Below, piece by piece: positions 6,656 to 30,188 of a stretch of 30,652 nt of DNA. Positions within the stretch are counted from its first letter, which is position 1, and each line of letters opens with the position of its first letter. This DNA comes from a virus (taxonomy: Duplodnaviria > Heunggongvirae > Uroviricota > Caudoviricetes). Position numbers and translations under genes: made by a program. The stretch is from the IMG/VR virus record IMGVR_UViG_3300045988_047713, positions 1 through 30,652 of that record; one strand, 5' to 3'. The notes beneath the pieces are model-generated. The model was not told the origin of the DNA and ran no database searches. It saw nothing but the letters and a program-made list of their open reading frames with translations.

Positions 6656-6853
6656 ATGAAAAACATATTTGACCGTTTAATTACTGTTATCGTATTTCTT
6701 GTGTCCGTAACGCTCGCGTCTTGTATTGTCGGACTAATGACCCGTGGTAATCATGCGGAAACTCCGTGGTGGTTTCTGGCAGGTATTGGGTTATTAGCGG
6801 CTGCTGCATCAATTGGCGCTTGCATGTGGGGAGTGAAAAACGATCATGACTGA
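6656..6853 (+). CDS. small membrane protein (65 aa, two predicted TM helices)
   Basis: AAGGAG RBS 8 nt upstream of ATG 6656; hydrophobic stretches LITVIVFLVSVTLASCIVGL and WWFLAGIGLLAAAASIGA. The track start at 6611 lies inside the promoter -10, so the internal ATG is preferred. Confidence 0.6.
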   Translation: MKNIFDRLITVIVFLVSVTLASCIVGLMTRGNHAETPWWFLAGIGLLAAAASIGACMWGVKNDHD

Positions 6854-8893: not shown

Positions 8894-8922
8894 AGCGGGG
8901 CTAACTACCCCGCTATCTTTAT
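8894..8922. terminator. bidirectional rho-independent terminator
   Basis: Hairpin AGCGGGG-CTAACTA-CCCCGCT (8894-8914), A-run upstream and T-rich run downstream, so it works on both strands; lies between convergent genes. Confidence 0.75.
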
Positions 8923-9737
8923 TGACCCATCATATCTTTATACATCATCAAAACAACATCATCCGGCATATTGTCTACATCACAATGTGGGTTATGCGAT
9001 AACGCATACAGTCTGATTTTCTCCTTCAAATCGCTGACATCGACTACAGGTGGTTCCACTCGTGCTACAGGTGGTTCCACTCGTGCTACAGGTGGTTCCA
9101 CTCGTGCTACAGGTGGTTCCACTCGTGCTACAGGTGGTTCCACTCGTGCTACAGGTGGTTCCACTCGTGCTACAGGTGGTTCACAAACCATCACGTTAAA
9201 CGGTGTACCGGTGCCTTCGTATTTTTCAAGCAAATCGACCATTACGTTTACACATTCCGGGATCCAACCCCGGCGCAAACCATTCTGAATCCAACTGTCA
9301 GTAATTGTGTGTTCGTTTAAATTTCTGCGTAACACGTATCTGGTACATTCAAAATTACCGCACATCGCCTCAAACCGTGTCCACACGTCGTGACCGTGAA
9401 CAGCTTCCAGGATCTGTGAATCAACATATCTGACACGTTGCCAGTAGTTATTAGCAAAACGCCTGTGTGGTAATTTCTGACGCAGTTCGGTAACCGGTAT
9501 TGTGCGTTTAAGAACAATGTTTTCGTCAGAATGTTGTACTGACAAGGGTGACAGTGTGAAGTCAGTAATCTCTTCAAGAATAATACTGATCGTTTCAATT
9601 TTAGGATGAAATCTACCGCTCAACCATTGGTTGTAACGACCAACAGTTACCTTAACACCTCGACGATTAAGGTATTCAACAGCATTTTGCACCCCGCCTT
9701 TTAAATCTATCAATTCGTCTAAAAGGTTCTTTTTCAT
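8919..9737 (-). CDS. hypothetical protein with N-terminal HTH-like segment and 7 tandem EPPVARV heptads
   Basis: 272 aa from ATG 9737 (AAGGTG RBS 7 nt upstream; the track start at 9773 is 12 codons further); internal perfect 21-bp nucleotide repeats; sits directly beside the operator array. Confidence 0.6.
   Translation of the reverse strand: MKKNLLDELIDLKGGVQNAVEYLNRRGVKVTVGRYNQWLSGRFHPKIETISIILEEITDFTLSPLSVQHSDENIVLKRTIPVTELRQKLPHRRFANNYWQRVRYVDSQILEAVHGHDVWTRFEAMCGNFECTRYVLRRNLNEHTITDSWIQNGLRRGWIPECVNVMVDLLEKYEGTGTPFNVMVCEPPVARVEPPVARVEPPVARVEPPVARVEPPVARVEPPVARVEPPVVDVSDLKEKIRLYALSHNPHCDVDNMPDDVVLMMYKDMMGQ
9044..9190. repeat. perfect tandem repeat, 21-bp unit CTACAGGTGGTTCCACTCGTG, about 6.7 copies, in-frame within a CDS
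   Basis: Read directly: identical units from 9044 to about 9184; encodes the EPPVARV heptads on the minus strand. Confidence 0.9.
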
Positions 9738-9780
9738 TATCACACCTTCTTTATTTAACCACGGATAAATCATAACTCGC

Positions 9781-9955
9781 GTTAGCAGCTAGTGCAAGAT
9801 GTGCTTTATATGTTAGTGCACTTACACCTAATACATATTGTGCTTTAACGGTTAGTGCAAGATGCACGTTGTGCATTAGCTGTTAGTGCACGTTGTGTAT
9901 CTATGTTGGTACAGTTAGTGCACGTTGTGTATTATATAGTGCACGTTATGCATTA
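9781..9955. promoter_or_regulatory. array of 5-7 palindromic operator/iteron-like sites (core TAGTGCACGTTGTGCATTA)
   Basis: Copies near 9790, 9812, 9861, 9885, 9917, 9938; each contains an inverted repeat TGCAC-N3-GTGCA; spacing about 25-35 bp. Confidence 0.6.
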
Positions 9956-9967
9956 AAGTTATACTTA

Positions 9968-10085
9968 ACATAGATTGCATCATGTTTATTTTTTAACCAA
10001 CCTTTCTCTATCTTATTCTTTTTATTACCTTTTTATAGATAACATAGAAAACATAGATAAATAGAAGAAGTAGTATAGAAAGATA
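9968..10085. repeat. AT-rich intergenic element, copy A of a ~105-110-bp duplicated sequence
   Basis: CATGTTTATTTTTTAACCAACCTTTCTCTATCTTATTCTTTTTATTACCTTTTTATAGA...ACATAGATAAATAGAAG is about 90 percent identical to 29201-29310. Confidence 0.8.
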
Positions 10086-10225
10086 GAGATAGTACATATA
10101 GTGTATTAGCTGTAAATAGAGCTAAAATAAAAGTCTGGGAGATACCTATTGTAATCTATGTTTTTATGCAAGTCTTTGAAATCATTGTGATTATTGGCTA
10201 CGTATTTATGTATGTGGTCGAAAAT

Positions 10226-10243
10226 TAGTGCATGTTGTGCATT
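10226..10243. promoter_or_regulatory. isolated operator copy (TTAGTGCATGTTGTGCATTA)
   Basis: Same palindromic core as the 9781-9955 array, about 100 bp upstream of TerS. Confidence 0.45.
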
Positions 10244-10348
10244 AACTGTAAACTTAATACTAACATTGTATTAGCTGTAAAACAGGGCGTGTAGACAACC
10301 CGTGGGTATCTGTGGGAAACTAATTTAAAATTTATGGGAGACAAATTT

Positions 10349-14704: not shown

Positions 14705-14984
14705 TTACACGTTGTTTTGTCTGAGTAGTGACACATACACCATCAGTGCGCCCAAAAGTTTCTAACACAGTTTGAAGTGCTTGATACATTTCAGGACTGT
14801 TTAACATTAATGACAGGTTACCCCGGAGTTCCTGGAGTTTTCCTTGTTCTTCGTTTGGTAAGTAACAAGGGTCTTCCATTTTAATAATCACTTGCGCGAT
14901 TGCCCCGTGGTCTGGTGATGAAATACTCACATGATTTTCAACCCATCCTTCATCTTTAAACCACGGTAATTGTGAACATTTCAT
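14661..14984 (-). CDS. hypothetical protein (107 aa)
   Basis: First gene downstream of promoter copy 5 on the minus strand. Confidence 0.5.
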   Translation of the reverse strand: MKCSQLPWFKDEGWVENHVSISSPDHGAIAQVIIKMEDPCYLPNEEQGKLQELRGNLSLMLNSPEMYQALQTVLETFGRTDGVCVTTQTKQRVIENIRELLERVEHG

Positions 14985-15214
14985 ACCTGTAACCCTCTTG
15001 TTTTTTGTTTAGTGACAAGATATCTCTTCAACCCGTCGCAACTAATTTCACAATCCCCGCAGGAACCACCATCCAACCAGATGATGCATAGTGTGTGATT
15101 TCGTGGGGTGAGTTACGCTTTATACTCACCGTAGCGCCTGACAATCAGCGGTATCTTCAGCCGGACAATTCCGGGTTACTACATACTTGGTCAGGTATCT
15201 TGTCTATGACAACA

Positions 15215-15258
15215 ACTATACAGATACATGAGCAATCTGTCAAGAATTATTTTAAACC
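15215..15258 (-). promoter_or_regulatory. conserved sigma70-type promoter, copy 5 (minus strand)
   Basis: -35 TTGACA (15243-15238), 17-bp spacer, -10 TATAGT (15220-15215), UP element; about 220-nt leader to ATG 14984. Confidence 0.55.
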
Positions 15259-15319
15259 TCTGTTACCACCTGTCACCCGTGGTAAACTGTACAGAACAGT
15301 TACAAACGGACCGATAATC

Positions 15320-17083
15320 ATGAATAAGTTTACTGGAAATATTCATAATTACCCGCGTTGGCGGGATGCCTACGCAAATGACGAACGTATCTGGCGAAAA
15401 GGTCAGCCACGACCGGATTATAAACAGTGTTACATTGACCGCATTAACCTGTTAAATCGTATGCGCACGGATCGGGCAATTGTCCCGGTGCTGAAAAAGT
15501 ATTACGAAACAAACCCGGTAGCGTTTATCCTCGACTGGGCGTTTACTTACGACCCGCGTAACGTCGGTACTGAGTACACGCCTAACATGCCTTTCTGCCT
15601 TTTCGAACGTCAGATCGACATGGTTCAGTTTGTTTATGAAGCGCTTGAAGACAAAGAGAAAGGACTTTGGGAAAAATCGCGAGACTATGGCGCGACCTGG
15701 GTAGCCTGTGGTTTGTCCGTATGGGCGTGGCTGTATCGTCCTGGTTCTTCAGTTGGCTGGGGATCACGTAAAGAACAGCTTGTTGATAAACTGGGCGACC
15801 CGGATAGTATTTTTGAAAAGATTCGCCAGATTATCCGCGCATTACCACCGGAATTACGCCCGGTCGGTCTGCGTGAAAAAGACCATCTGGTTTACATGAA
15901 ATGTATCAACCCAGAAAACGGTGCAACAATTACTGGTGAAGCTGGCGATAACATCGGTCGTGGTGGTCGTAAATCTGTCTATTTTCTCGACGAGGCAGCA
16001 CACGTAGATCGTCCTGAACTGATCGAAGCGTCGTTGTCAGCTAACACCAACGTTCGTATCGACATCAGTTCAGTTAACGGTGTTGGTAACGTTTTTTATC
16101 GTAATCGTAAAGCTGGTCTGGAATGGGAACCAGGTAAGAAATTACCCCGTGGTAAATTGCGTGTCATGGTTCTGGACTGGCGTGATCACCCGGCTAAAGA
16201 TGACGAATGGTATAAGCGAGAAAAACAATCGTTCGCTGAAAAAGGTTTACAGCATATTTTCGCACAGGAAGTTGACCGCGATTATGCCGCTGCTGTTCAG
16301 GGCGTGTTGATTAAAGCTGAATGGGTACGCGCTGCTTTTGACGCGTTCCGTGACACAGAATGGCGCAAAGCTAACGGACTACTTACACCAACAGGTCAGC
16401 GTATCGCCGGACAGGATGCCGCAGACGGTGGTGAAGACGCAAGCGCACTGGTAATTGCTCACGGTGTATTCCTGACACATCTGCAACTTGACCACAGGGG
16501 CGCTGAACTGGCTGCACCAGGAATGTTGACGATGGCTAATATGCTGGGTGTTGATGAATACTGGTACGAAGTTAACGGTGTTGGTACAGGCGTTAAAGTA
16601 GCGGCAAATGACCGGAAAGATACTCTACGCTTCCGTGTGCGCCCGTGGTTACCGAACGGAAAAGTGGTGGATCCAGGTGGTGATATTATCGGTGGTACGA
16701 AACCTGGCGATAAAGACCGTAAATCAAACAAAGATTATTTCTCAAATTATAAAGCACAGGCATCGTGGGCGTTACGCCTGCGATGTCAGCGAATTTATAA
16801 ATGGTATGTGGAAGGTCAACCACAGGATCCAGACGAAATTATTCTGATTGATCCATCACTGGAAAATGCACAACGGTTAGAGGCTGAGTTAAGTCAGCCA
16901 ACATATACCAGTAACGGTGCCGGGAAGATTGTGATCGACAAAAAACCAAATGGAAGTAAGTCGCCAAACTTTTTCGATGCTGCGGTTATTGCACTATCAC
17001 CAAAACGCACTGAATTTGTCGAAGAACCATTTACTGGTGGTGTGAATCCTGTTGGTACGCCTGATTACGGTGACATTTTTTAA
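15320..17083 (+). CDS. terminase large subunit (TerL)
   Basis: 587 aa from ATG 15320; ERQIDMV...GLWEKSRDYGATWVACGLSVWAWLY (Q-motif plus deviant Walker A), Walker B VYFLDEAAH, nuclease-domain acidic cluster GQDAADGGEDASALVIAHG. The in-frame extension to 15095 is rejected because it would encode across promoter copy 5. Confidence 0.8.
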   Translation: MNKFTGNIHNYPRWRDAYANDERIWRKGQPRPDYKQCYIDRINLLNRMRTDRAIVPVLKKYYETNPVAFILDWAFTYDPRNVGTEYTPNMPFCLFERQIDMVQFVYEALEDKEKGLWEKSRDYGATWVACGLSVWAWLYRPGSSVGWGSRKEQLVDKLGDPDSIFEKIRQIIRALPPELRPVGLREKDHLVYMKCINPENGATITGEAGDNIGRGGRKSVYFLDEAAHVDRPELIEASLSANTNVRIDISSVNGVGNVFYRNRKAGLEWEPGKKLPRGKLRVMVLDWRDHPAKDDEWYKREKQSFAEKGLQHIFAQEVDRDYAAAVQGVLIKAEWVRAAFDAFRDTEWRKANGLLTPTGQRIAGQDAADGGEDASALVIAHGVFLTHLQLDHRGAELAAPGMLTMANMLGVDEYWYEVNGVGTGVKVAANDRKDTLRFRVRPWLPNGKVVDPGGDIIGGTKPGDKDRKSNKDYFSNYKAQASWALRLRCQRIYKWYVEGQPQDPDEIILIDPSLENAQRLEAELSQPTYTSNGAGKIVIDKKPNGSKSPNFFDAAVIALSPKRTEFVEEPFTGGVNPVGTPDYGDIF

Positions 17084-26594: not shown

Positions 26595-27554
26595 ATGGCT
26601 ACTAAAGACCCATACCCGGATATTTCAGACAAGTATGACGCTCGCATTCGCGAAGCACTTGATGTTGTGTGGGAAAACGTGCGTCGTAGTGAGTCGTTAG
26701 CTAACCTGGAATACATCATTGAAACTCAGGGTATTACCGGGCTACTCCCCATTCTTGAAACACTCCCTGATGAACTTAGTGCACAGTTGCGCCCGGTTAT
26801 TGAAGACGCGATCGCCGAATCAGGTCGTGTAGTCGTTCAGGTTTTACCGAAAGCGGCTGTGACAGGTCCGGTTGTGTTCAGTCTGGTCACCCCACAGGTC
26901 AGTACATACATCAACAACTATGTCGGACAACTGATCCGTGAAGTCAGTGACGAAACAGTCAAAGCTGTTCAGATTGCTGTTAACCAGGGTGTGGTAACCG
27001 GACGAAATCCGCGTCAGATAGCCCGTGATTTTCGATCATCAATAGGGTTAACCACACGGCAAGAAATGACGGTTCAACGTCTGCGATCAGCACTGGAAAA
27101 AGGTGAAGCAGGTTATATGAACAGTCTGACCACTGTTACAGACAGTGCGAAGAACGCTGTAAGTGCCGGGAAACTATCACAGGCGAAGATTGACCAGATA
27201 ATCGAACAGACACGCTTGCGTTACGTAAAACAGCGTACAGAGACAATAGCGCGTACTGAATCACTTCGTGCTGTATCAGTTGGTCAGGATCAGGCAATAC
27301 GTCAGGGACAGATTACCGGGGCTGTTAGTAATGAATTGCTGAAGCGCTGGTTATATAGAAAGGATGGTCGGACACGTGATGCGCATATTTCCACGGGTGA
27401 AACGAACGGTTGGATACCAATGGACAGACCGTTTTCAACGCCGTTAGGACCACTTATGTTTCCTCGTGATCCTAACGGTAGTGCCGCTAACGTGATTAAT
27501 TGTCGTTGCAGGGTACAGTATAGTTTGCCGGAAGATATAGGTTCATTGGGTTAA
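26595..27554 (+). CDS. head morphogenesis protein, Mu F / SPP1 gp7 family
   Basis: 319 aa; C-terminal region ...NGWIPMDRPF...ANVINCRCRVQY matches the conserved end of MuF-like minor head proteins. Confidence 0.7.
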   Translation: MATKDPYPDISDKYDARIREALDVVWENVRRSESLANLEYIIETQGITGLLPILETLPDELSAQLRPVIEDAIAESGRVVVQVLPKAAVTGPVVFSLVTPQVSTYINNYVGQLIREVSDETVKAVQIAVNQGVVTGRNPRQIARDFRSSIGLTTRQEMTVQRLRSALEKGEAGYMNSLTTVTDSAKNAVSAGKLSQAKIDQIIEQTRLRYVKQRTETIARTESLRAVSVGQDQAIRQGQITGAVSNELLKRWLYRKDGRTRDAHISTGETNGWIPMDRPFSTPLGPLMFPRDPNGSAANVINCRCRVQYSLPEDIGSLG

Positions 27555-27781
27555 TCAGGTTCACGCCAGTCAAGAGGTCGCACATCACATAACAGACGAA
27601 CATTATCTTCAAATTTTATGTTTATCCTGTGATGTGCAGTATCATTTTCATAAACAGAAGGCCATATTTCATAACCCTGAACAGTTCGTGCCACCCACTT
27701 GTTAACGCTTGCCAGATGGATCAACACTTCACAACCAACTGGAGGAAGGTTTTTACCATCCCAAATCTGTTTCATTCCCAT
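27551..27781 (-). CDS. small protein with WDG..LPPVG domain (76 aa)
   Basis: QIWDGKNLPPVGCEV...W parallels QQWDGEGLPPVGTVCEW in the ORF at 23738-24202. Confidence 0.45.
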   Translation of the reverse strand: MGMKQIWDGKNLPPVGCEVLIHLASVNKWVARTVQGYEIWPSVYENDTAHHRINIKFEDNVRLLCDVRPLDWREPD

Positions 27782-27786
27782 AGCGG

Positions 27787-28062
27787 TTACTCCTGTTTTT
27801 CACCACAGAACGGACAATAAGACATTTTGATGTTGGTTCCCAGGCGTGTGAAGTTCTTCGCCAGTTCACCGTTTTTCTTTTTAGCACGGTATGCAAGACG
27901 ATATTTCAACATAACGTGAATTTTACCAGACGTCAGACCGAAACACTGATTATCCCAGCCCACTTTATCAAACAGGTTAGTGCTGACTTCCGAACCTACT
28001 GGTACTTTTTCCATCAGACGTTTTTGAAGTTCGTCACCAATTTTTTTCATACAATCACACAT
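27787..28062 (-). CDS. zinc-ribbon protein (91 aa)
   Basis: N-terminal CDC and C-terminal CPFCG; GAGGT RBS. Confidence 0.5.
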   Translation of the reverse strand: MCDCMKKIGDELQKRLMEKVPVGSEVSTNLFDKVGWDNQCFGLTSGKIHVMLKYRLAYRAKKKNGELAKNFTRLGTNIKMSYCPFCGEKQE

Positions 28063-28223
28063 TACGCGTACCTCGATAGTCGTCTTAATTTAACGATCAA
28101 CCTTGTGACTTTACTCCAGTCAGATTCAGTAAAATCGTCCACATCTTTAGCCCATAACTCATTGACATGTCGTGGGTTATATGGTTCTTTCTTGACAGGC
28201 TGTTTCCGTTTCTTTTTACCCAT
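28062..28223 (-). CDS. small basic protein (53 aa)
   Basis: ATG 28223; MGKKKRKQPVKK...; TAATG overlap with the downstream gene. Not in ORF track. Confidence 0.3.
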   Translation of the reverse strand: MGKKKRKQPVKKEPYNPRHVNELWAKDVDDFTESDWSKVTRLIVKLRRLSRYA

Positions 28224-28226
28224 AGG

Positions 28227-28610
28227 TTATTCCCCAGGGTGACGGATATTCAGATCCGGGAGAATTTGCATCGGGTTAAACGTAACACGATAACGATACT
28301 GATCTGTTGGTGAAGGGTCTATTTGTTCAATGAAATAAGTTACCTCCGTGGTTAACCCCATAAAGTGTTTCTTAACGTCGTTCGGACCAGTTTTACAGGT
28401 GATTTCGATCTCTTTGCTAGTGTTCTCACGGGCACAACGACCTTCGATAGACAAAAGATACTCACCGTTACGAACGTTATAGAAAACGATACGACGATTT
28501 ACTTCAAAGTTAGCTGCAGCGGTTGCAACGTTACGACTGGCAACATCAGCAGCATTATCACAGGCTGTCAAGGTTGTTGTCAGTAATGCACACAGGATCA
28601 GTTTCTTCAT
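28227..28610 (-). CDS. lipoprotein (127 aa)
   Basis: Signal peptide MKKLILCALLTTTLTAC with lipobox LTAC. Confidence 0.6.
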   Translation of the reverse strand: MKKLILCALLTTTLTACDNAADVASRNVATAAANFEVNRRIVFYNVRNGEYLLSIEGRCARENTSKEIEITCKTGPNDVKKHFMGLTTEVTYFIEQIDPSPTDQYRYRVTFNPMQILPDLNIRHPGE

Positions 28611-28625
28611 TTTAGTGTCTCGGAG

Positions 28626-29009
28626 TTATTTAATGATTAATGTTGGTTGTAAGTCTTCTTCGTACCACGTCCAACCAATACACGCACCATCTTCAGCATC
28701 AACATATGGTTTCAACCAATCGATAAATTGTTCAATCTCACCACCATAATTTTTAATATCACTACGACTAAAAACATATTGAGTATCGGTGAAATCAAAT
28801 TTAGGACAACTATTTATTACTTCCGGGTGATGATAAAAACTGCTACAACTACCAATAAAATTCCATCTGGGAAGACTGAAAAACTTATGTTGTGGTAGTT
28901 TCTCTGGTTCTTTTTCACCACAGAACATGTGTGCAATAATAGCTTTCACATCCACGGGTGCATCTACTTTAATCTGACACTTCAACACTAATTCGGTATA
29001 CATTCCCAT
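28626..29009 (-). CDS. hypothetical protein (127 aa)
   Basis: ATG 29009 with GAGGA RBS; the track start at 29084 lies inside promoter copy 10. Confidence 0.5.
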   Translation of the reverse strand: MGMYTELVLKCQIKVDAPVDVKAIIAHMFCGEKEPEKLPQHKFFSLPRWNFIGSCSSFYHHPEVINSCPKFDFTDTQYVFSRSDIKNYGGEIEQFIDWLKPYVDAEDGACIGWTWYEEDLQPTLIIK

Positions 29010-29055
29010 TTTCACATCCTCATTCACCAGCAACCCATTGTCGCTCCCTGTGATA

Positions 29056-29099
29056 AAGATATACCACAGTTTGCAATCCGTCAAGAATTATTTTAAAGA
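29056..29099 (-). promoter_or_regulatory. conserved sigma70-type promoter, copy 10 (minus strand)
   Basis: -35 TTGACG (29084-29079), 17-bp spacer, -10 TATCTT (29061-29056), UP element. Confidence 0.55.
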
Positions 29100-29101
29100 T
29101 A

Positions 29102-29188
29102 CAGCTAATACAGAACGTGTACTAACTGTACATGGTTTTACATAGGTTTCATGATTTTGAGTTGCAGCTAATACACGTTCTGTATTAG
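29102..29188. promoter_or_regulatory. two palindromic operator-like sites (CTAATACA-N5-TGTATTAG family)
   Basis: 29102-29128 (CAGCTAATACAGAACGTGTACTAA) and 29167-29188 (GCTAATACACGTTCTGTATTAG, perfect 8-bp arms); architecture related to the TAGTGCACGTTGTGCATTA sites at 9781-9955. Confidence 0.5.
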
Positions 29189-29200
29189 TAGATCATAAAT

Positions 29201-29310
29201 TCATAGATTTCGTCATGTTTATTTTTTAACCAACCCTTCTCTATCTTATTCTTTTTATTACCTTTTTATAGAAAACATAATAAACATAGATAAATAGAAG
29301 AGTAGTATAA
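29201..29310. repeat. AT-rich intergenic element, copy B of the duplicated sequence
   Basis: About 90 percent identical to 9968-10085 with two small indels. Confidence 0.8.
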
Positions 29311-29382
29311 GTAGTATAAGTTGCTGTAAGTAGGAGAGGTTTAAAAGGTATAGGGGGGTCGCATACTTCCCATGAATCTATA

Positions 29383-29424
29383 CGTAAAATAATTCTTGAC
29401 GGATTACACCGACACAACTACCCT
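29383..29424 (+). promoter_or_regulatory. conserved sigma70-type promoter, copy 11 (plus strand)
   Basis: UP element, -35 TTGACG (29396-29401), 17-bp spacer, -10 TACCCT (29419-29424). Confidence 0.5.
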
Positions 29425-29454
29425 GTGGTTAAGAGAACAAGAAGGGTTGAATGT

Positions 29455-29781
29455 ATGGATCCGAACATCAGAGTTGCTACAGACGAATTCATTCGTCGCG
29501 CCCGTAAAATTCACGGTGATCGTTACGACTACTCATTCAGCATTGTTGAAGATAGTTCCAGCACAGTGGTTATTATTGACCGTGAAACTAACACAGTGTT
29601 TTTCCAGGTTGTCGCTGAACATCTGGACGGTGTTGAACCGGTAACGACTGCTGTTGAACCGATCAAGAATCTTTCTGAGATATTCGGTAACGTCGTAAAC
29701 AGCGTGTATCACCAGTGCATTTATTCATCTGAAATGTTAGAATTTAGTCATGTTGAAACAATACGAGGACAATCCCCGTGA
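29455..29781 (+). CDS. hypothetical protein with degenerate HGD.YDYS-type N-terminal domain (108 aa)
   Basis: ATG 29455 with AAGGG RBS; FIRRARKIHGDRYDYSFS resembles a motif recalled from the N-termini of some phage endonuclease-associated proteins, but the usual Cys/His ligands are absent. Confidence 0.45.
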   Translation: MDPNIRVATDEFIRRARKIHGDRYDYSFSIVEDSSSTVVIIDRETNTVFFQVVAEHLDGVEPVTTAVEPIKNLSEIFGNVVNSVYHQCIYSSEMLEFSHVETIRGQSP

Positions 29782-30188
29782 TTAACGTAAAAGTTAATAA
29801 GGTTGACAACTCACTACGTATGGTATTCGGTTGGGGTAGTATCTGTAAAAAACGTAATCAGGAGACAGGCCAGTTAGAAATTTACACAGACACGGACAAC
29901 GAGCAATTTCCCGAGGATGTCACTCTGAAAGCATGGTTGGATTTCATGAATTCTGATCAGCGCATCATGGACAATATGCACAATGAACAACCTGTTGGGA
30001 AAGTTGTGTTTGCGTTTCCGATGACTGAAGACATTGCGGCAAGTTTTGGGCTGGTTGATAAACTGGATCAGACAGGCGTCATTGTTGGTACGTTGATAAC
30101 TGATGACGAAGTTTTGAAAAAGTTTCAGACTGGTGAATATACGGGATATAGTATCGGTGGAACTGCATATTATGAGGATGTGGAATAA
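29778..30188 (+). CDS. hypothetical head-assembly-associated protein (136 aa)
   Basis: ORF track; ATGA coupling; position in the head gene block. Confidence 0.5.
   Translation: MINVKVNKVDNSLRMVFGWGSICKKRNQETGQLEIYTDTDNEQFPEDVTLKAWLDFMNSDQRIMDNMHNEQPVGKVVFAFPMTEDIAASFGLVDKLDQTGVIVGTLITDDEVLKKFQTGEYTGYSIGGTAYYEDVE

What the first reader, a model, noticed from the sequence alone, without database searches (positions are those of the whole stretch)
27551..29099. Minus-strand cassette with a lipoprotein and zinc-ribbon protein inserted between head genes
Promoter copy 10 drives a 127-aa unknown, a 127-aa lipoprotein (lipobox LTAC), a 53-aa basic protein, a zinc-ribbon protein and a small WDG-domain protein. 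Phage lipoproteins in such positions often act in superinfection exclusion by blocking a receptor, as T5 Llp does, or as outer-membrane spanin components, but no endolysin or holin is adjacent here.
Basis: inference. Interest (0 to 1): 0.45.

Follow-up and report, generated by a model that had tools for sequence, protein, structure and literature searches.

The report
Phage accessory operon with gp64-family lipoprotein
The five-gene minus-strand cassette is real, but its lipoprotein is not a spanin or a T5 Llp-type receptor blocker: it belongs to a very widespread, strongly conserved phage lipoprotein family (mycobacteriophage L5/D29 gp64) that is toxic to bacteria, has an unknown target, and is widely mislabelled as a recombination factor.

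Summary
The window is a 9NA-like E. coli siphovirus, 95-96% identical here to AVIO78A and BASEL phage Bas82. A conserved promoter motif at 29072-29095(-) precedes five tightly packed minus-strand genes: orfA (127 aa), orfB (127-aa lipoprotein, LTAC lipobox), orfC (53 aa, basic), orfD (91 aa, four conserved Cys) and orfE (76 aa). They lie between the Mu-F-like head gene and the XkdF-type protease gene.

- orfB matches Pfam PF25682 (Phage_VG64) at E=4e-46.
- The family is in 935 phage records, including mycobacteriophage L5 gp64, Bacillus SPO1 gp1.2 and Streptococcus Sfi21. All examined members carry a lipobox.
- Identity to Mycobacterium and Bacillus phage members is 45-50%.
- Asp at +2 predicts inner-membrane retention.
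- Bas82 has its own holin, endolysin and i-/o-spanin genes about 20 kb away.
- Hosts without an outer membrane make an Llp/Cor-type receptor blocker unlikely.

Published work reports that D29 gp64 is cytotoxic, dispensable, and modulates lysis when its lipid anchor is lost, and that the L1 orthologue is lethal to M. smegmatis and E. coli. Most likely orfB is a membrane-tethered periplasmic effector acting on a conserved envelope target. Exclusion at the inner membrane is untested. The other four genes have no assignable function. This is a new member of a known but unexplained family.

The parts
29072..29095 (-). Conserved promoter repeat (A/T-rich UP-like element plus -35 TTGACG at 29079-29084). 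The likely -10 is TATCTT at 29056-29061 (17-nt spacer) or TATATC at 29058-29063.
   Evidence: 12 copies of the 24-mer with at most 6 mismatches. The 16-mer occurs 10 times versus 0.05 expected. Promoter scan. Conserved in Bas82, AVIO78A and PDP46. Function as a promoter is inferred, not shown.
29106..29124 (.). Operator-like palindrome TAGTACA-N5-TGTATTA, centred about 33 bp upstream of the -35.
   Evidence: The motif is confined to this region and to 9790-10273.
29169..29187 (.). Second operator-like palindrome TAATACA-N5-TGTATTA. Together with the first it forms a 24-nt inverted repeat.
   Evidence: (I16). The spacer orientation differs between relatives.
28626..29009 (-). orfA, 127 aa, acidic (pI 5.0), function unknown (phrog_4334).
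   Evidence: E=2.6e-39. 143 homologue clusters, none named. Invariant MGMYTE start and SFYHHP / FSRSDxKNY motifs. No Pfam or PDB match. Occurs without the lipoprotein in other phages.
28227..28610 (-). orfB, 127-aa prolipoprotein of the PF25682 (L5/D29 gp64, L1 Hlg1) family. Signal peptide is residues 1-16, lipobox LTAC, lipidated Cys17 (codon 28560-28562), Asp18 at +2. The mature domain is 111 aa with conserved Cys59/Cys72, RR and KKHF motifs.
   Evidence: Pfam 156 bits against a cut-off of 27. phrog_478. 3094 clusters at 90% identity. 1100 clusters at 50% identity. Alignment A1. AF2 model with a helix plus five bent strands.
28062..28223 (-). orfC, 53 aa, basic (pI 10.2; N-terminus MGKKKRKQPVKK), function unknown (phrog_17117).
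   Evidence: Synonymous exceeds non-synonymous change against relatives.
27787..28062 (-). orfD, 91 aa, putative zinc-binding protein (CxC at the N-terminus, CPFCG at the C-terminus) with the basic YRAKKKNGELAKN motif. Its start overlaps the orfC stop (TAATG).
27551..27781 (-). orfE, 76 aa, function unknown (phrog_26831). Its stop codon shares the palindrome TTAA (27551-27554) with the stop of the convergent head-morphogenesis gene.
   Evidence: No PDB match. 84% identical DNA is present but unannotated in 9NA.
26595..27554 (+). Flanking head-morphogenesis gene (Mu F / SPP1 gp7-like), convergent with the cassette.
   Evidence: Pfam PF04233 E=6e-11 and phrog_2468 E=2.5e-70.
29385..29408 (+). 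Divergent copy of the same promoter repeat, facing the 118-aa ORF (29425-29781) and the XkdF-type protease gene (29778-30188).
   Evidence: Pfam PF14550 E=9e-8 for 29778-30188.

Best explanation
The region is an operon of five independent accessory genes in a virulent 9NA-like E. coli siphovirus. It is read leftwards from one copy of the phage's repeated sigma-70-like promoter and lies in a variable slot between the head-morphogenesis gene and the protease, scaffold and capsid genes.

Its one interpretable product, orfB, belongs to the PF25682 phage lipoprotein family (mycobacteriophage L5/D29 gp64, L1 Hlg1, SPO1 gp1.2). After export, lipidation at Cys17 and cleavage, the Asp at +2 should keep it in the inner membrane. 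The 111-aa beta-rich domain would then be tethered on the periplasmic face, the same position its homologues occupy in monoderm hosts.

There it most likely binds a component of the outer face of the cytoplasmic membrane that is conserved across bacteria. Through that target it would perturb envelope growth, integrity or energisation, with the lipid tether limiting its reach. It is an accessory, dispensable function that conditions the envelope during infection. It is not a core lysis protein, not a receptor mask, and not a recombination directionality factor.

Shown here: gene structure, family membership, lipobox, cross-phylum distribution and genomic contexts. Taken from the literature on homologues: toxicity, dispensability and the lysis-modulating effect of untethering. 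Inferred: inner-membrane location, a conserved envelope target, and expression timing.
For: Gene structure and promoter.

Family membership: Pfam PF25682 at 156 bits (cut-off 27), E=3.9e-46; phrog_478 E=9.5e-46.

Distribution:
- 3094 clusters at 90% identity.
- 1100 clusters at 50% identity, all 84-190 aa and single-domain.
- 935 phage records: Mycobacterium 349, Bacillus 192, Gordonia 79, Streptococcus 50, Staphylococcus 47, plus Proteus, Vibrio and Erwinia. Identity over the mature domain is 45-50% to L5 gp64 and SPO1 gp1.2.

Lipobox:
- Present in L5 gp64 (LSAC), SPO1 gp1.2 (LVGC), an unannotated Sfi21 ORF (LTGC) and Chy5 gp61 (LVGC).
- Present in 113 of 113 parsable homologues.
- The +2 residue is Asp or Glu in 25 of the 27 parsable homologues among the 30 closest.

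Invariant Cys17, Cys59, Cys72, RR and KKH(F).

Context: the gene sits in early or replication-gene regions as a stand-alone gene, never beside lysis or receptor-binding genes.

Dispensability: 9NA keeps only the last 44 nt of orfB, and cassette content differs in 9NA and PDP46.

Literature: D29 gp64 is a lipoprotein (LVGC, Cys31). Both wild type and C31Y are cytotoxic in M. smegmatis. Deletion has no lysis phenotype. C31Y restores early, efficient lysis in a lysA2a/lysA2b double deletion (bioRxiv 10.64898/2026.08.27.747656). [quoted passage not shown] 2008, BMB Rep 41:363, as cited in PMC9317374 and PMC4171505).
Against: - No experiment exists for any Gram-negative member. Function is transferred from homologues at about 47-50% identity.
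- The primary L1 paper could not be read. Only its title and a review's sentence were available.
- D29 itself was not in the phage collection. Its membership rests on the syntenic L5 gene 64, on the D29-like Chy5 protein having the same LVGC lipobox, and on a length difference that matches (128 + 9 = 137 aa, Cys22 to Cys31).
- Inner-membrane retention is a rule-based prediction from Asp+2.
- The same promoter motif also precedes plus-strand head genes, so promoter class does not establish early timing.
- Toxicity on overexpression can be non-specific.
- The benefit to the phage is unknown. D29 lacking gene 64 behaves like wild type in lysis assays.
Confidence: 0.55

Rival explanations
1. orfB is a superinfection-exclusion protein acting at the cytoplasmic membrane. 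Tethered on the periplasmic face, it would block DNA entry (or the tape-measure or channel step) of later-arriving phages, as Ltp of S. thermophilus phage TP-J34 or T4 Imm/Sp do. Toxicity would be a side effect of overproduction.
For: It is a lipoprotein on the outer face of the cytoplasmic membrane. It is patchily distributed, dispensable and stand-alone, lies outside lysis cassettes, and occurs in both lytic and temperate phages. L1 hlg1 is described as delayed-early. Exclusion was not tested in the D29 study.
Against: Identity of 45-50% between phages of E. coli, Mycobacterium and Bacillus is hard to reconcile with a target on the highly variable injection machinery of competing phages. There is no similarity to Ltp, Imm, Sp, SieA, Llp or Cor families. 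Lethality in two phyla and the lysis-suppressor phenotype point to a host target.
Confidence: 0.2
2. orfB is a genuine accessory lysis factor that helps to breach or destabilise the envelope at the end of infection, as the authors of the D29 study propose.
For: The C31Y allele of D29 gp64 bypasses loss of both holin-like regulators and advances lysis. The protein is cytotoxic.
Against: Deleting D29 gene 64 changes no lysis phenotype in any background. The suppressor is a mislocalising gain-of-function allele. The gene is never in or beside a lysis cassette in the contexts examined. Here it lies about 20 kb from the lysis genes of the relative Bas82, and L1 hlg1 is delayed-early rather than late.
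Confidence: 0.15
3. orfB is the outer-membrane (o-) spanin, or an Llp/Cor-type outer-membrane lipoprotein that masks the phage's receptor.
For: It is a small phage lipoprotein.
Against: - Asp at +2 predicts inner-membrane retention, and this holds in the closest relatives.
- Bas82 already has an Rz-like i-spanin with an embedded o-spanin in a canonical lysis cassette.
- The mature protein is a 111-aa folded domain with 6 Pro.
- Family members are encoded by phages of monoderm hosts.
- It is not adjacent to a receptor-binding protein gene.
- Bas82 infection depends on O-antigen.
Confidence: 0.03
4. orfB is a site-specific recombination directionality factor (RDF), as PHROGs (phrog_478), Pharokka-type annotations and many RefSeq records state.
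For: Database labels only.
Against: Every examined member has a lipoprotein signal peptide and would be exported from the cytoplasm, away from DNA and integrase. Bas82 has no integrase among its 107 annotated features. The original GenBank records of the same phages say 'hypothetical protein' where the RefSeq copies say RDF. No experimental source for the label was found.
Confidence: 0.01

Closest known systems
Mycobacteriophage L5/D29 gp64 and L1 Hlg1 (Pfam PF25682 'Phage_VG64'; NCBI name 'beta-sandwich lipoprotein')
   Same: Same Pfam family at 156 bits. Same length class, lipobox, conserved Cys pair, and RR and KKHF motifs. Identity over the mature domain is about 49%. It is a stand-alone gene among non-structural genes.
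   Different: The host is a diderm enterobacterium. Asp+2 adds a sorting decision that does not exist in monoderms. The gene lies inside the head-gene region of a virulent siphovirus. No functional data exist for this or any Gram-negative member. The D29 authors describe the family as restricted to actinobacteriophages, whereas it is also present in phages of Bacillus, Streptococcus, Staphylococcus and Proteobacteria.
T5 Llp and phi80/N15/T1 Cor (outer-membrane lipoproteins that block FhuA)
   Same: Small phage-encoded lipoproteins made during lytic growth and dispensable for growth.
   Different: No sequence or fold similarity. The predicted location is the inner membrane, not the outer. The gene is not linked to a receptor-binding protein gene. 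The family is conserved across hosts with unrelated receptors and without an outer membrane.
Ltp of Streptococcus thermophilus phage TP-J34 (exclusion lipoprotein on the outer face of the cytoplasmic membrane)
   Same: Same predicted topology: a lipid-anchored domain outside the cytoplasmic membrane.
   Different: Unrelated sequence (no Ltp Pfam hit). Ltp is prophage-expressed and targets the tape-measure protein of incoming phages. The PF25682 family is far more conserved and is toxic to the host.
Rz1-type o-spanins
   Same: Phage lipoprotein with a lipobox.
   Different: Wrong sorting signal, wrong size and composition, wrong genomic position. A canonical spanin pair already exists in the close relative.
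Leftward accessory-gene cassettes interrupting the morphogenetic genes of 9NA-like phages (9NA gp34-36; Bas82_0026-0032; AVIO78A_040-045)
   Same: Same slot, same promoter motif and 95-96% DNA identity to AVIO78A and Bas82.
   Different: Gene content varies. 9NA lacks orfA and orfB apart from a 44-nt remnant. PDP46 has about 1.4 kb of extra genes. AVIO78A has a 1-nt indel in orfA.

Membership tests
PF25682 / L5-D29 gp64 / L1 Hlg1 phage lipoprotein family | Full-length match to the family HMM above the curated cut-off | tested here: met
   156.4 bits against a cut-off of 27, residues 4-122 on profile positions 8-126 of 127. phrog_478 E=9.5e-46.
PF25682 / L5-D29 gp64 / L1 Hlg1 phage lipoprotein family | N-terminal lipoprotein signal peptide with a lipobox Cys | tested here: met
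   MKKLILCALLTTTLTAC. The lipobox Cys is invariant in alignment A1. It is present in 113 of 113 parsable homologues and in L5, SPO1, Sfi21 and Chy5.
PF25682 / L5-D29 gp64 / L1 Hlg1 phage lipoprotein family | Conserved core motifs (ADVxS.N, NFE..RR.VF.N, IEG.C ... C, KKHF.G, V.YF.EQ) | tested here: met
   All are present in orfB. The invariant columns are listed.
PF25682 / L5-D29 gp64 / L1 Hlg1 phage lipoprotein family | Cytotoxic when overexpressed; dispensable for phage growth | not testable with these tools
   Reported for D29 gp64 and L1 hlg1. Natural loss in 9NA supports dispensability only.
o-spanin (Rz1-like) | Outer-membrane sorting (no Lol-avoidance signal at +2) | tested here: not met
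   Cys17-Asp18-Asn19. Asp or Glu at +2 in 25 of the 27 parsable homologues among the 30 closest. The Asp+2 retention rule is established E. coli knowledge, not tested here.
o-spanin (Rz1-like) | Gene embedded in, overlapping or adjacent to an i-spanin gene within a lysis cassette | tested here: not met
   Its neighbours are orfA and orfC. The lysis cassette with an Rz-like spanin and an embedded o-spanin lies elsewhere in Bas82.
o-spanin (Rz1-like) | Short, Pro-rich, largely unstructured mature peptide | tested here: not met
   The mature part is 111 aa with 6 Pro. The predicted fold is a helix plus five to seven strands.
T5 Llp / Cor receptor-blocking lipoproteins | Sequence or structural similarity to Llp or Cor | tested here: not met
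T5 Llp / Cor receptor-blocking lipoproteins | Genetic linkage to the receptor-binding protein gene | tested here: not met
   The cassette is flanked by head genes. The tail fibre gene of Bas82 is about 18 kb away.
T5 Llp / Cor receptor-blocking lipoproteins | Blocks adsorption or infection through an outer-membrane receptor | not testable with these tools
   Needs adsorption and plating assays. Bas82 is reported as O-antigen dependent.
Recombination directionality factor (database label) | Cytoplasmic protein acting with a phage integrase | tested here: not met
   The protein has an export signal and lipobox. No integrase is annotated in Bas82.
Zinc ribbon (orfD) | Two conserved Cys pairs able to bind one zinc ion | tested here: met
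   C2 and C4 are at least 90% conserved; C83 and C86 are invariant in 25 sequences.
Zinc ribbon (orfD) | Zinc-ribbon fold (two beta-hairpin knuckles) | tested here: inconclusive

The most novel reading that the evidence does not exclude
PF25682 lipoproteins could be a pan-bacterial class of phage effectors that act from outside the cytoplasmic membrane on one universally conserved target, for example the lipid II / peptidoglycan-synthesis machinery, the divisome or membrane energisation. [quoted passage not shown] On this reading the E. coli phage member, which has a cultured near-identical relative in the BASEL collection (Bas82), would be the tractable entry point for identifying a new 'protein antibiotic' target.
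Probability: 0.3. Interest if true: 0.75.

Novelty: new member of a known kind. Interest (0 to 1): 0.42.

Why it matters
The cassette itself is ordinary phage accessory cargo. Its lipoprotein, however, belongs to one of the most widely distributed and best conserved small phage protein families. The family has a Pfam entry but no mechanism, and a misleading functional label (RDF) has propagated through PHROGs-based and RefSeq annotation.

Genetic work so far is in mycobacteriophages, and its authors regard the family as restricted to actinobacteriophages. Showing that the same lipoprotein is carried by E. coli, Salmonella, Proteus, Vibrio, Bacillus, Streptococcus and Staphylococcus phages implies a target common to diderms and monoderms. 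It also moves the question into E. coli genetics, where suppressor screens and envelope fractionation are easy.

Practically, the result corrects the annotation and removes the spanin and Llp readings.

Tried and rejected
- Sequence searches of orfB, orfA, orfD and orfE against PDB chains gave nothing below E=0.1.
- Foldseek against viral models returned only family members.
- NCBIfam and PADLOC gave no meaningful hits for any of the five proteins.
- A search for domain fusions that might reveal the function of PF25682 found only disordered C-terminal tails and one N-terminal crAss001_48 fusion among the 150 best of 1100 representatives.
- I tested whether orfA and orfB form a conserved pair. 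They do not: orfA homologues occur in other phages without the lipoprotein.
- Rfam found no known RNA anywhere in the window.
- The 9NA genomics paper (PMC6819911), the L1 hlg1 paper (PMID 18510866) and the D29 record (NC_001900, AF022214) were not available.
- No terminator-like site was found at the cassette end.
- The mechanical 152-aa TTG-started version of orfA was rejected because the TTG is the -35 hexamer.
Full report
**What the window is.** Megablast of 27400-29450 finds 19 phage records. The best are Escherichia phage vB_EcoS_AVIO78A (96.0% identity, full length), BASEL phage KarinMuster_Bas82 (95.6%) and PDP46 (94.7%). Weaker, partial matches go to Salmonella phages SP069, 9NA and Sasha. 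The window is therefore part of a 9NA-like (Nonanavirus/Sashavirus) siphovirus.

In the annotated relatives, the plus-strand morphogenetic genes are interrupted several times by blocks of small minus-strand genes. The finding is one of these blocks. It lies between the Mu-F/SPP1-gp7-like head-morphogenesis gene (26595-27554, Pfam PF04233) and a 118-aa ORF followed by an XkdF-type protease gene (29778-30188, PF14550).

**Checking the observation.**
- orfA is 127 aa, starting at ATG 29009. The longer TTG-started ORF begins inside the -35 hexamer. The N-terminus MGMYTE is invariant in 34 homologues, which fixes the start.
- orfB (28227-28610) begins MKKLILCALLTTTLTAC. This is a textbook lipoprotein signal: a basic n-region, an 11-residue hydrophobic core, and the lipobox LTAC.
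- orfC (53 aa) has pI 10.2.
- orfD (91 aa) has CxC at its N-terminus and CPFCG at its C-terminus.
- orfE (76 aa) begins MGMKQIWDG.

Spacing is tight, with Shine-Dalgarno-like sequences and a TAATG overlap between orfC and orfD. All five match PHROG families (E from 1.6e-8 to 9.5e-46). Codon-level comparison with relatives shows mainly synonymous change in orfC and orfD. These are real genes.

**The promoter repeat.** Upstream lies a repeat whose core 16-mer TAAAATAATTCTTGAC occurs 10 times in the window, 9 of them exact, against 0.05 expected by chance. The longer 24-mer has 12 copies. The motif looks like an UP element plus a consensus -35, followed by variable, weaker -10 hexamers. The copy at 29072-29095(-) faces orfA, and a divergent copy at 29385-29408(+) faces the downstream head genes. 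Both are conserved in three relatives. Promoter activity is inferred. Because the same motif precedes both accessory cassettes and structural genes, it does not by itself tell when the cassette is expressed.

**The cassette is mosaic.**
- 9NA lacks orfA and almost all of orfB but retains the last 44 nt of orfB at 93% identity, a deletion scar.
- PDP46 carries about 1.4 kb of extra genes.
- AVIO78A has a 1-nt indel in orfA.
- orfA homologues occur in unrelated 45-50 kb phage contigs without the lipoprotein, once again next to a Mu-F gene.

The five genes are independent modules sharing a slot, not a system.

**The lipoprotein family.** orfB matches Pfam PF25682 'Phage_VG64' over its whole length (156 bits, cut-off 27) and phrog_478. 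The family is very large:
- 3094 clusters at 90% identity.
- 1100 clusters at 50% identity, all 84-190 aa with no informative fusions.
- 935 phage genome records.

Those records are dominated by phages of Mycobacterium (349), Bacillus (192, including SPO1 gp1.2), Gordonia, Streptococcus (including Sfi21) and Staphylococcus. They also include Proteus (T5-like), Vibrio, Erwinia, Pantoea, Pseudomonas and Salmonella phages. Identity of the mature domain to L5 gp64 and SPO1 gp1.2 is 45-50%, which is remarkable for a small phage protein.

I translated L5 gp64, SPO1 gp1.2, an unannotated Sfi21 ORF and Chy5 gp61. All begin with a lipoprotein signal peptide and lipobox (LSAC, LVGC, LTGC, LVGC). So do 113 of 113 parsable metagenomic homologues. 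In a 40-sequence alignment the lipobox Cys, a Cys pair (C59/C72), RR and KKH are invariant.

**What the lipoprotein is not.**

*Not an o-spanin.*
- The near-identical relative Bas82 has a canonical holin, endolysin, Rz-like i-spanin and embedded o-spanin cassette about 20 kb away.
- orfB has Asp at +2, the classical E. coli inner-membrane retention (Lol-avoidance) signal. This is established knowledge, not tested here. Asp or Glu occupies +2 in 25 of the 27 parsable homologues among the 30 closest.
- The mature protein is a 111-aa folded domain.
- The family thrives in phages of monoderm hosts.

*Not an Llp/Cor-type receptor mask.* The same localisation and host-range arguments apply. There is no sequence or fold similarity, no linkage to a receptor-binding gene, and Bas82 is reported to depend on O-antigen.

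*Not a recombination directionality factor.* That label comes from phrog_478 and appears in RefSeq copies of records whose GenBank originals say 'hypothetical protein'. An exported lipoprotein cannot partner an integrase, and Bas82 has no integrase. No literature source for the label was found.

**What is known about the family.** A 2026 preprint on mycobacteriophage D29 (10.64898/2026.08.27.747656) reports the following.
- gp64 is a 137-aa lipoprotein (LVGC, Cys31).
- Both wild type and C31Y are fully cytotoxic in M. smegmatis.
- Deleting gene 64 changes no lysis phenotype.
- All five spontaneous suppressors of a double deletion of the holin-like regulators were C31Y. They caused early, efficient lysis.
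- The authors regard gp64 as an accessory envelope protein constrained by its tether, with an unknown target and a distribution restricted to actinobacteriophages.

D29 itself was not in the collection. L5 gene 64 is its syntenic counterpart. The D29-like Chy5 protein has the same LVGC lipobox, and its length difference matches an upstream start.

A review states that L1 hlg1 is the identical orthologue of L5 gp64. It cites Chattoraj et al. [quoted passage not shown] I could not read that paper.

**Most likely mechanism.** Three lines of evidence point the same way: a uniform extracytoplasmic, membrane-tethered topology in all hosts; extreme conservation across phyla; and toxicity in two phyla together with the untethering phenotype. 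Together they suggest a domain that binds something conserved on the outer face of the cytoplasmic membrane and perturbs envelope growth, integrity or energisation, with the lipid anchor limiting its range.

The gene context, among early or replication genes and never beside lysis or receptor-binding genes, and the natural loss in 9NA fit an accessory host-conditioning role. Exclusion of secondary infection at the membrane step is the main rival. It has never been tested, but it sits awkwardly with such high conservation. A dedicated lysis role is weakened by the null phenotype of the D29 deletion.

**The other four genes.**
- orfD is restricted to Enterobacterales phages and prophages (44 clusters). 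Its four conserved Cys clamp the two termini in the model, and it has a conserved basic patch. Zinc binding is plausible, but a zinc-ribbon fold is not demonstrated.
- orfA (143 clusters), orfC and orfE have no match in Pfam, NCBIfam, PADLOC or PDB.
- I cannot assign functions to these genes. Host-takeover or anti-defence roles are possible but unsupported.

**Regulatory surroundings.** Two 19-bp palindromes (TAATACA-N5-TGTATTA) lie just upstream of the cassette promoter, at 29106-29124 and 29169-29187. The only other cluster of this motif, about eight sites, is at 9790-10273, upstream of the small-terminase gene. A 100-nt A/T-rich segment is shared between the two regions at 94% identity. This suggests a common DNA-binding regulator, which I did not identify.

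At the other end, the stop codons of orfE and the convergent head gene share the palindrome TTAA, and no terminator-like structure separates them. Convergent transcripts must therefore overlap.

**Verdict.** The functional guess is mostly wrong for the two named analogies and untested for exclusion in general. The lipoprotein is a new, Gram-negative member of a known but mechanistically unexplained family. The cassette as a whole is ordinary mosaic accessory cargo. The interest lies in the family's breadth, its misannotation, and the availability of an E. coli model.

Noticed in passing
window 9790-10273 and 29106-29187: A 19-bp palindrome (TAGTGCA/TAATACA-N5-TGTATTA) occurs in about 8 copies upstream of the small-terminase gene and in 2 copies just upstream of the cassette promoter, and essentially nowhere else (18 strand-matches versus 4 expected). 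In relatives the asymmetric 5-nt spacer appears in the opposite orientation at the same sites. These may be binding sites of an unidentified regulator or a packaging or replication protein.
   Followed up: partly
window 9969-10068 and 29202-29301: A 100-nt A/T-rich non-coding segment is duplicated at 94% identity, in both places next to the palindrome cluster and between divergent genes. Rfam finds nothing. Bas82 annotates a 47-aa ORF over the second copy, which is probably spurious.
   Followed up: partly
window 27551-27554: The convergent genes orfE (-) and the head-morphogenesis gene (+) share the palindrome TTAA as overlapping stop codons. No terminator-like hairpin lies between them, so the cassette and head-gene transcripts must run antisense into each other. 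Sasha-type relatives annotate a terminator at this position.
   Followed up: partly
phage records found (e.g. NC_001335 L5 gene 64, NC_017973, NC_023564): RefSeq copies name this exported lipoprotein 'site-specific recombination directionality factor RDF', while the GenBank originals of the same genomes say 'hypothetical protein'. The label matches phrog_478 and appears to be a propagated misannotation affecting hundreds of records.
   Followed up: partly
window 29778-30188 (+): The gene after the cassette is labelled 'DNA methyltransferase' in 9NA and Bas82 (phrog_1530). It matches the XkdF-type prohead serine protease family (PF14550, E=9e-8) and sits directly before the scaffold and capsid genes. 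The methyltransferase label is probably wrong.
   Followed up: partly
window 6656-6853 (+): A second small ORF (65 aa; equivalent to Bas82_0077 'lipoprotein') has a lipobox-like LASC after a hydrophobic stretch, followed by a second hydrophobic segment. It may be a small two-pass membrane protein rather than a lipoprotein.
   Followed up: no
window 9023-9211, inside ORF 8919-9773 (-): About seven tandem copies of a 21-nt unit (CTACAGGTGGTTCCACTCGTG), four of them perfect, give a 7-residue peptide repeat in a 284-aa protein of unknown function.
   Followed up: no
L002 (9NA) and L003 (AVIO78A) versus window 28227-29009: 9NA retains only the last 44 nt of the lipoprotein gene (93% identical), a deletion remnant. 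AVIO78A has a 1-nt indel that splits orfA into two annotated ORFs. 9NA also contains an unannotated 84%-identical copy of orfE.
   Followed up: yes
window 15239-15254 (-) within mechanical ORF 15095-17083 (+): A perfect promoter-repeat copy lies inside the 5' part of the longest possible large-terminase ORF. The Bas82 TerL is 588 aa, so the real start is probably near 15317, and the repeat then drives the leftward cassette ending at 14984.
   Followed up: no
L013 (Logan ERR11456847 contig, 46.8 kb): In an unrelated siphovirus an orfA homologue heads a small cassette that is also convergent on a Mu-F-type head gene and divergent from the lysis genes. The slot next to the head-morphogenesis gene may therefore be a recurrent landing site for accessory genes.
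   Followed up: no
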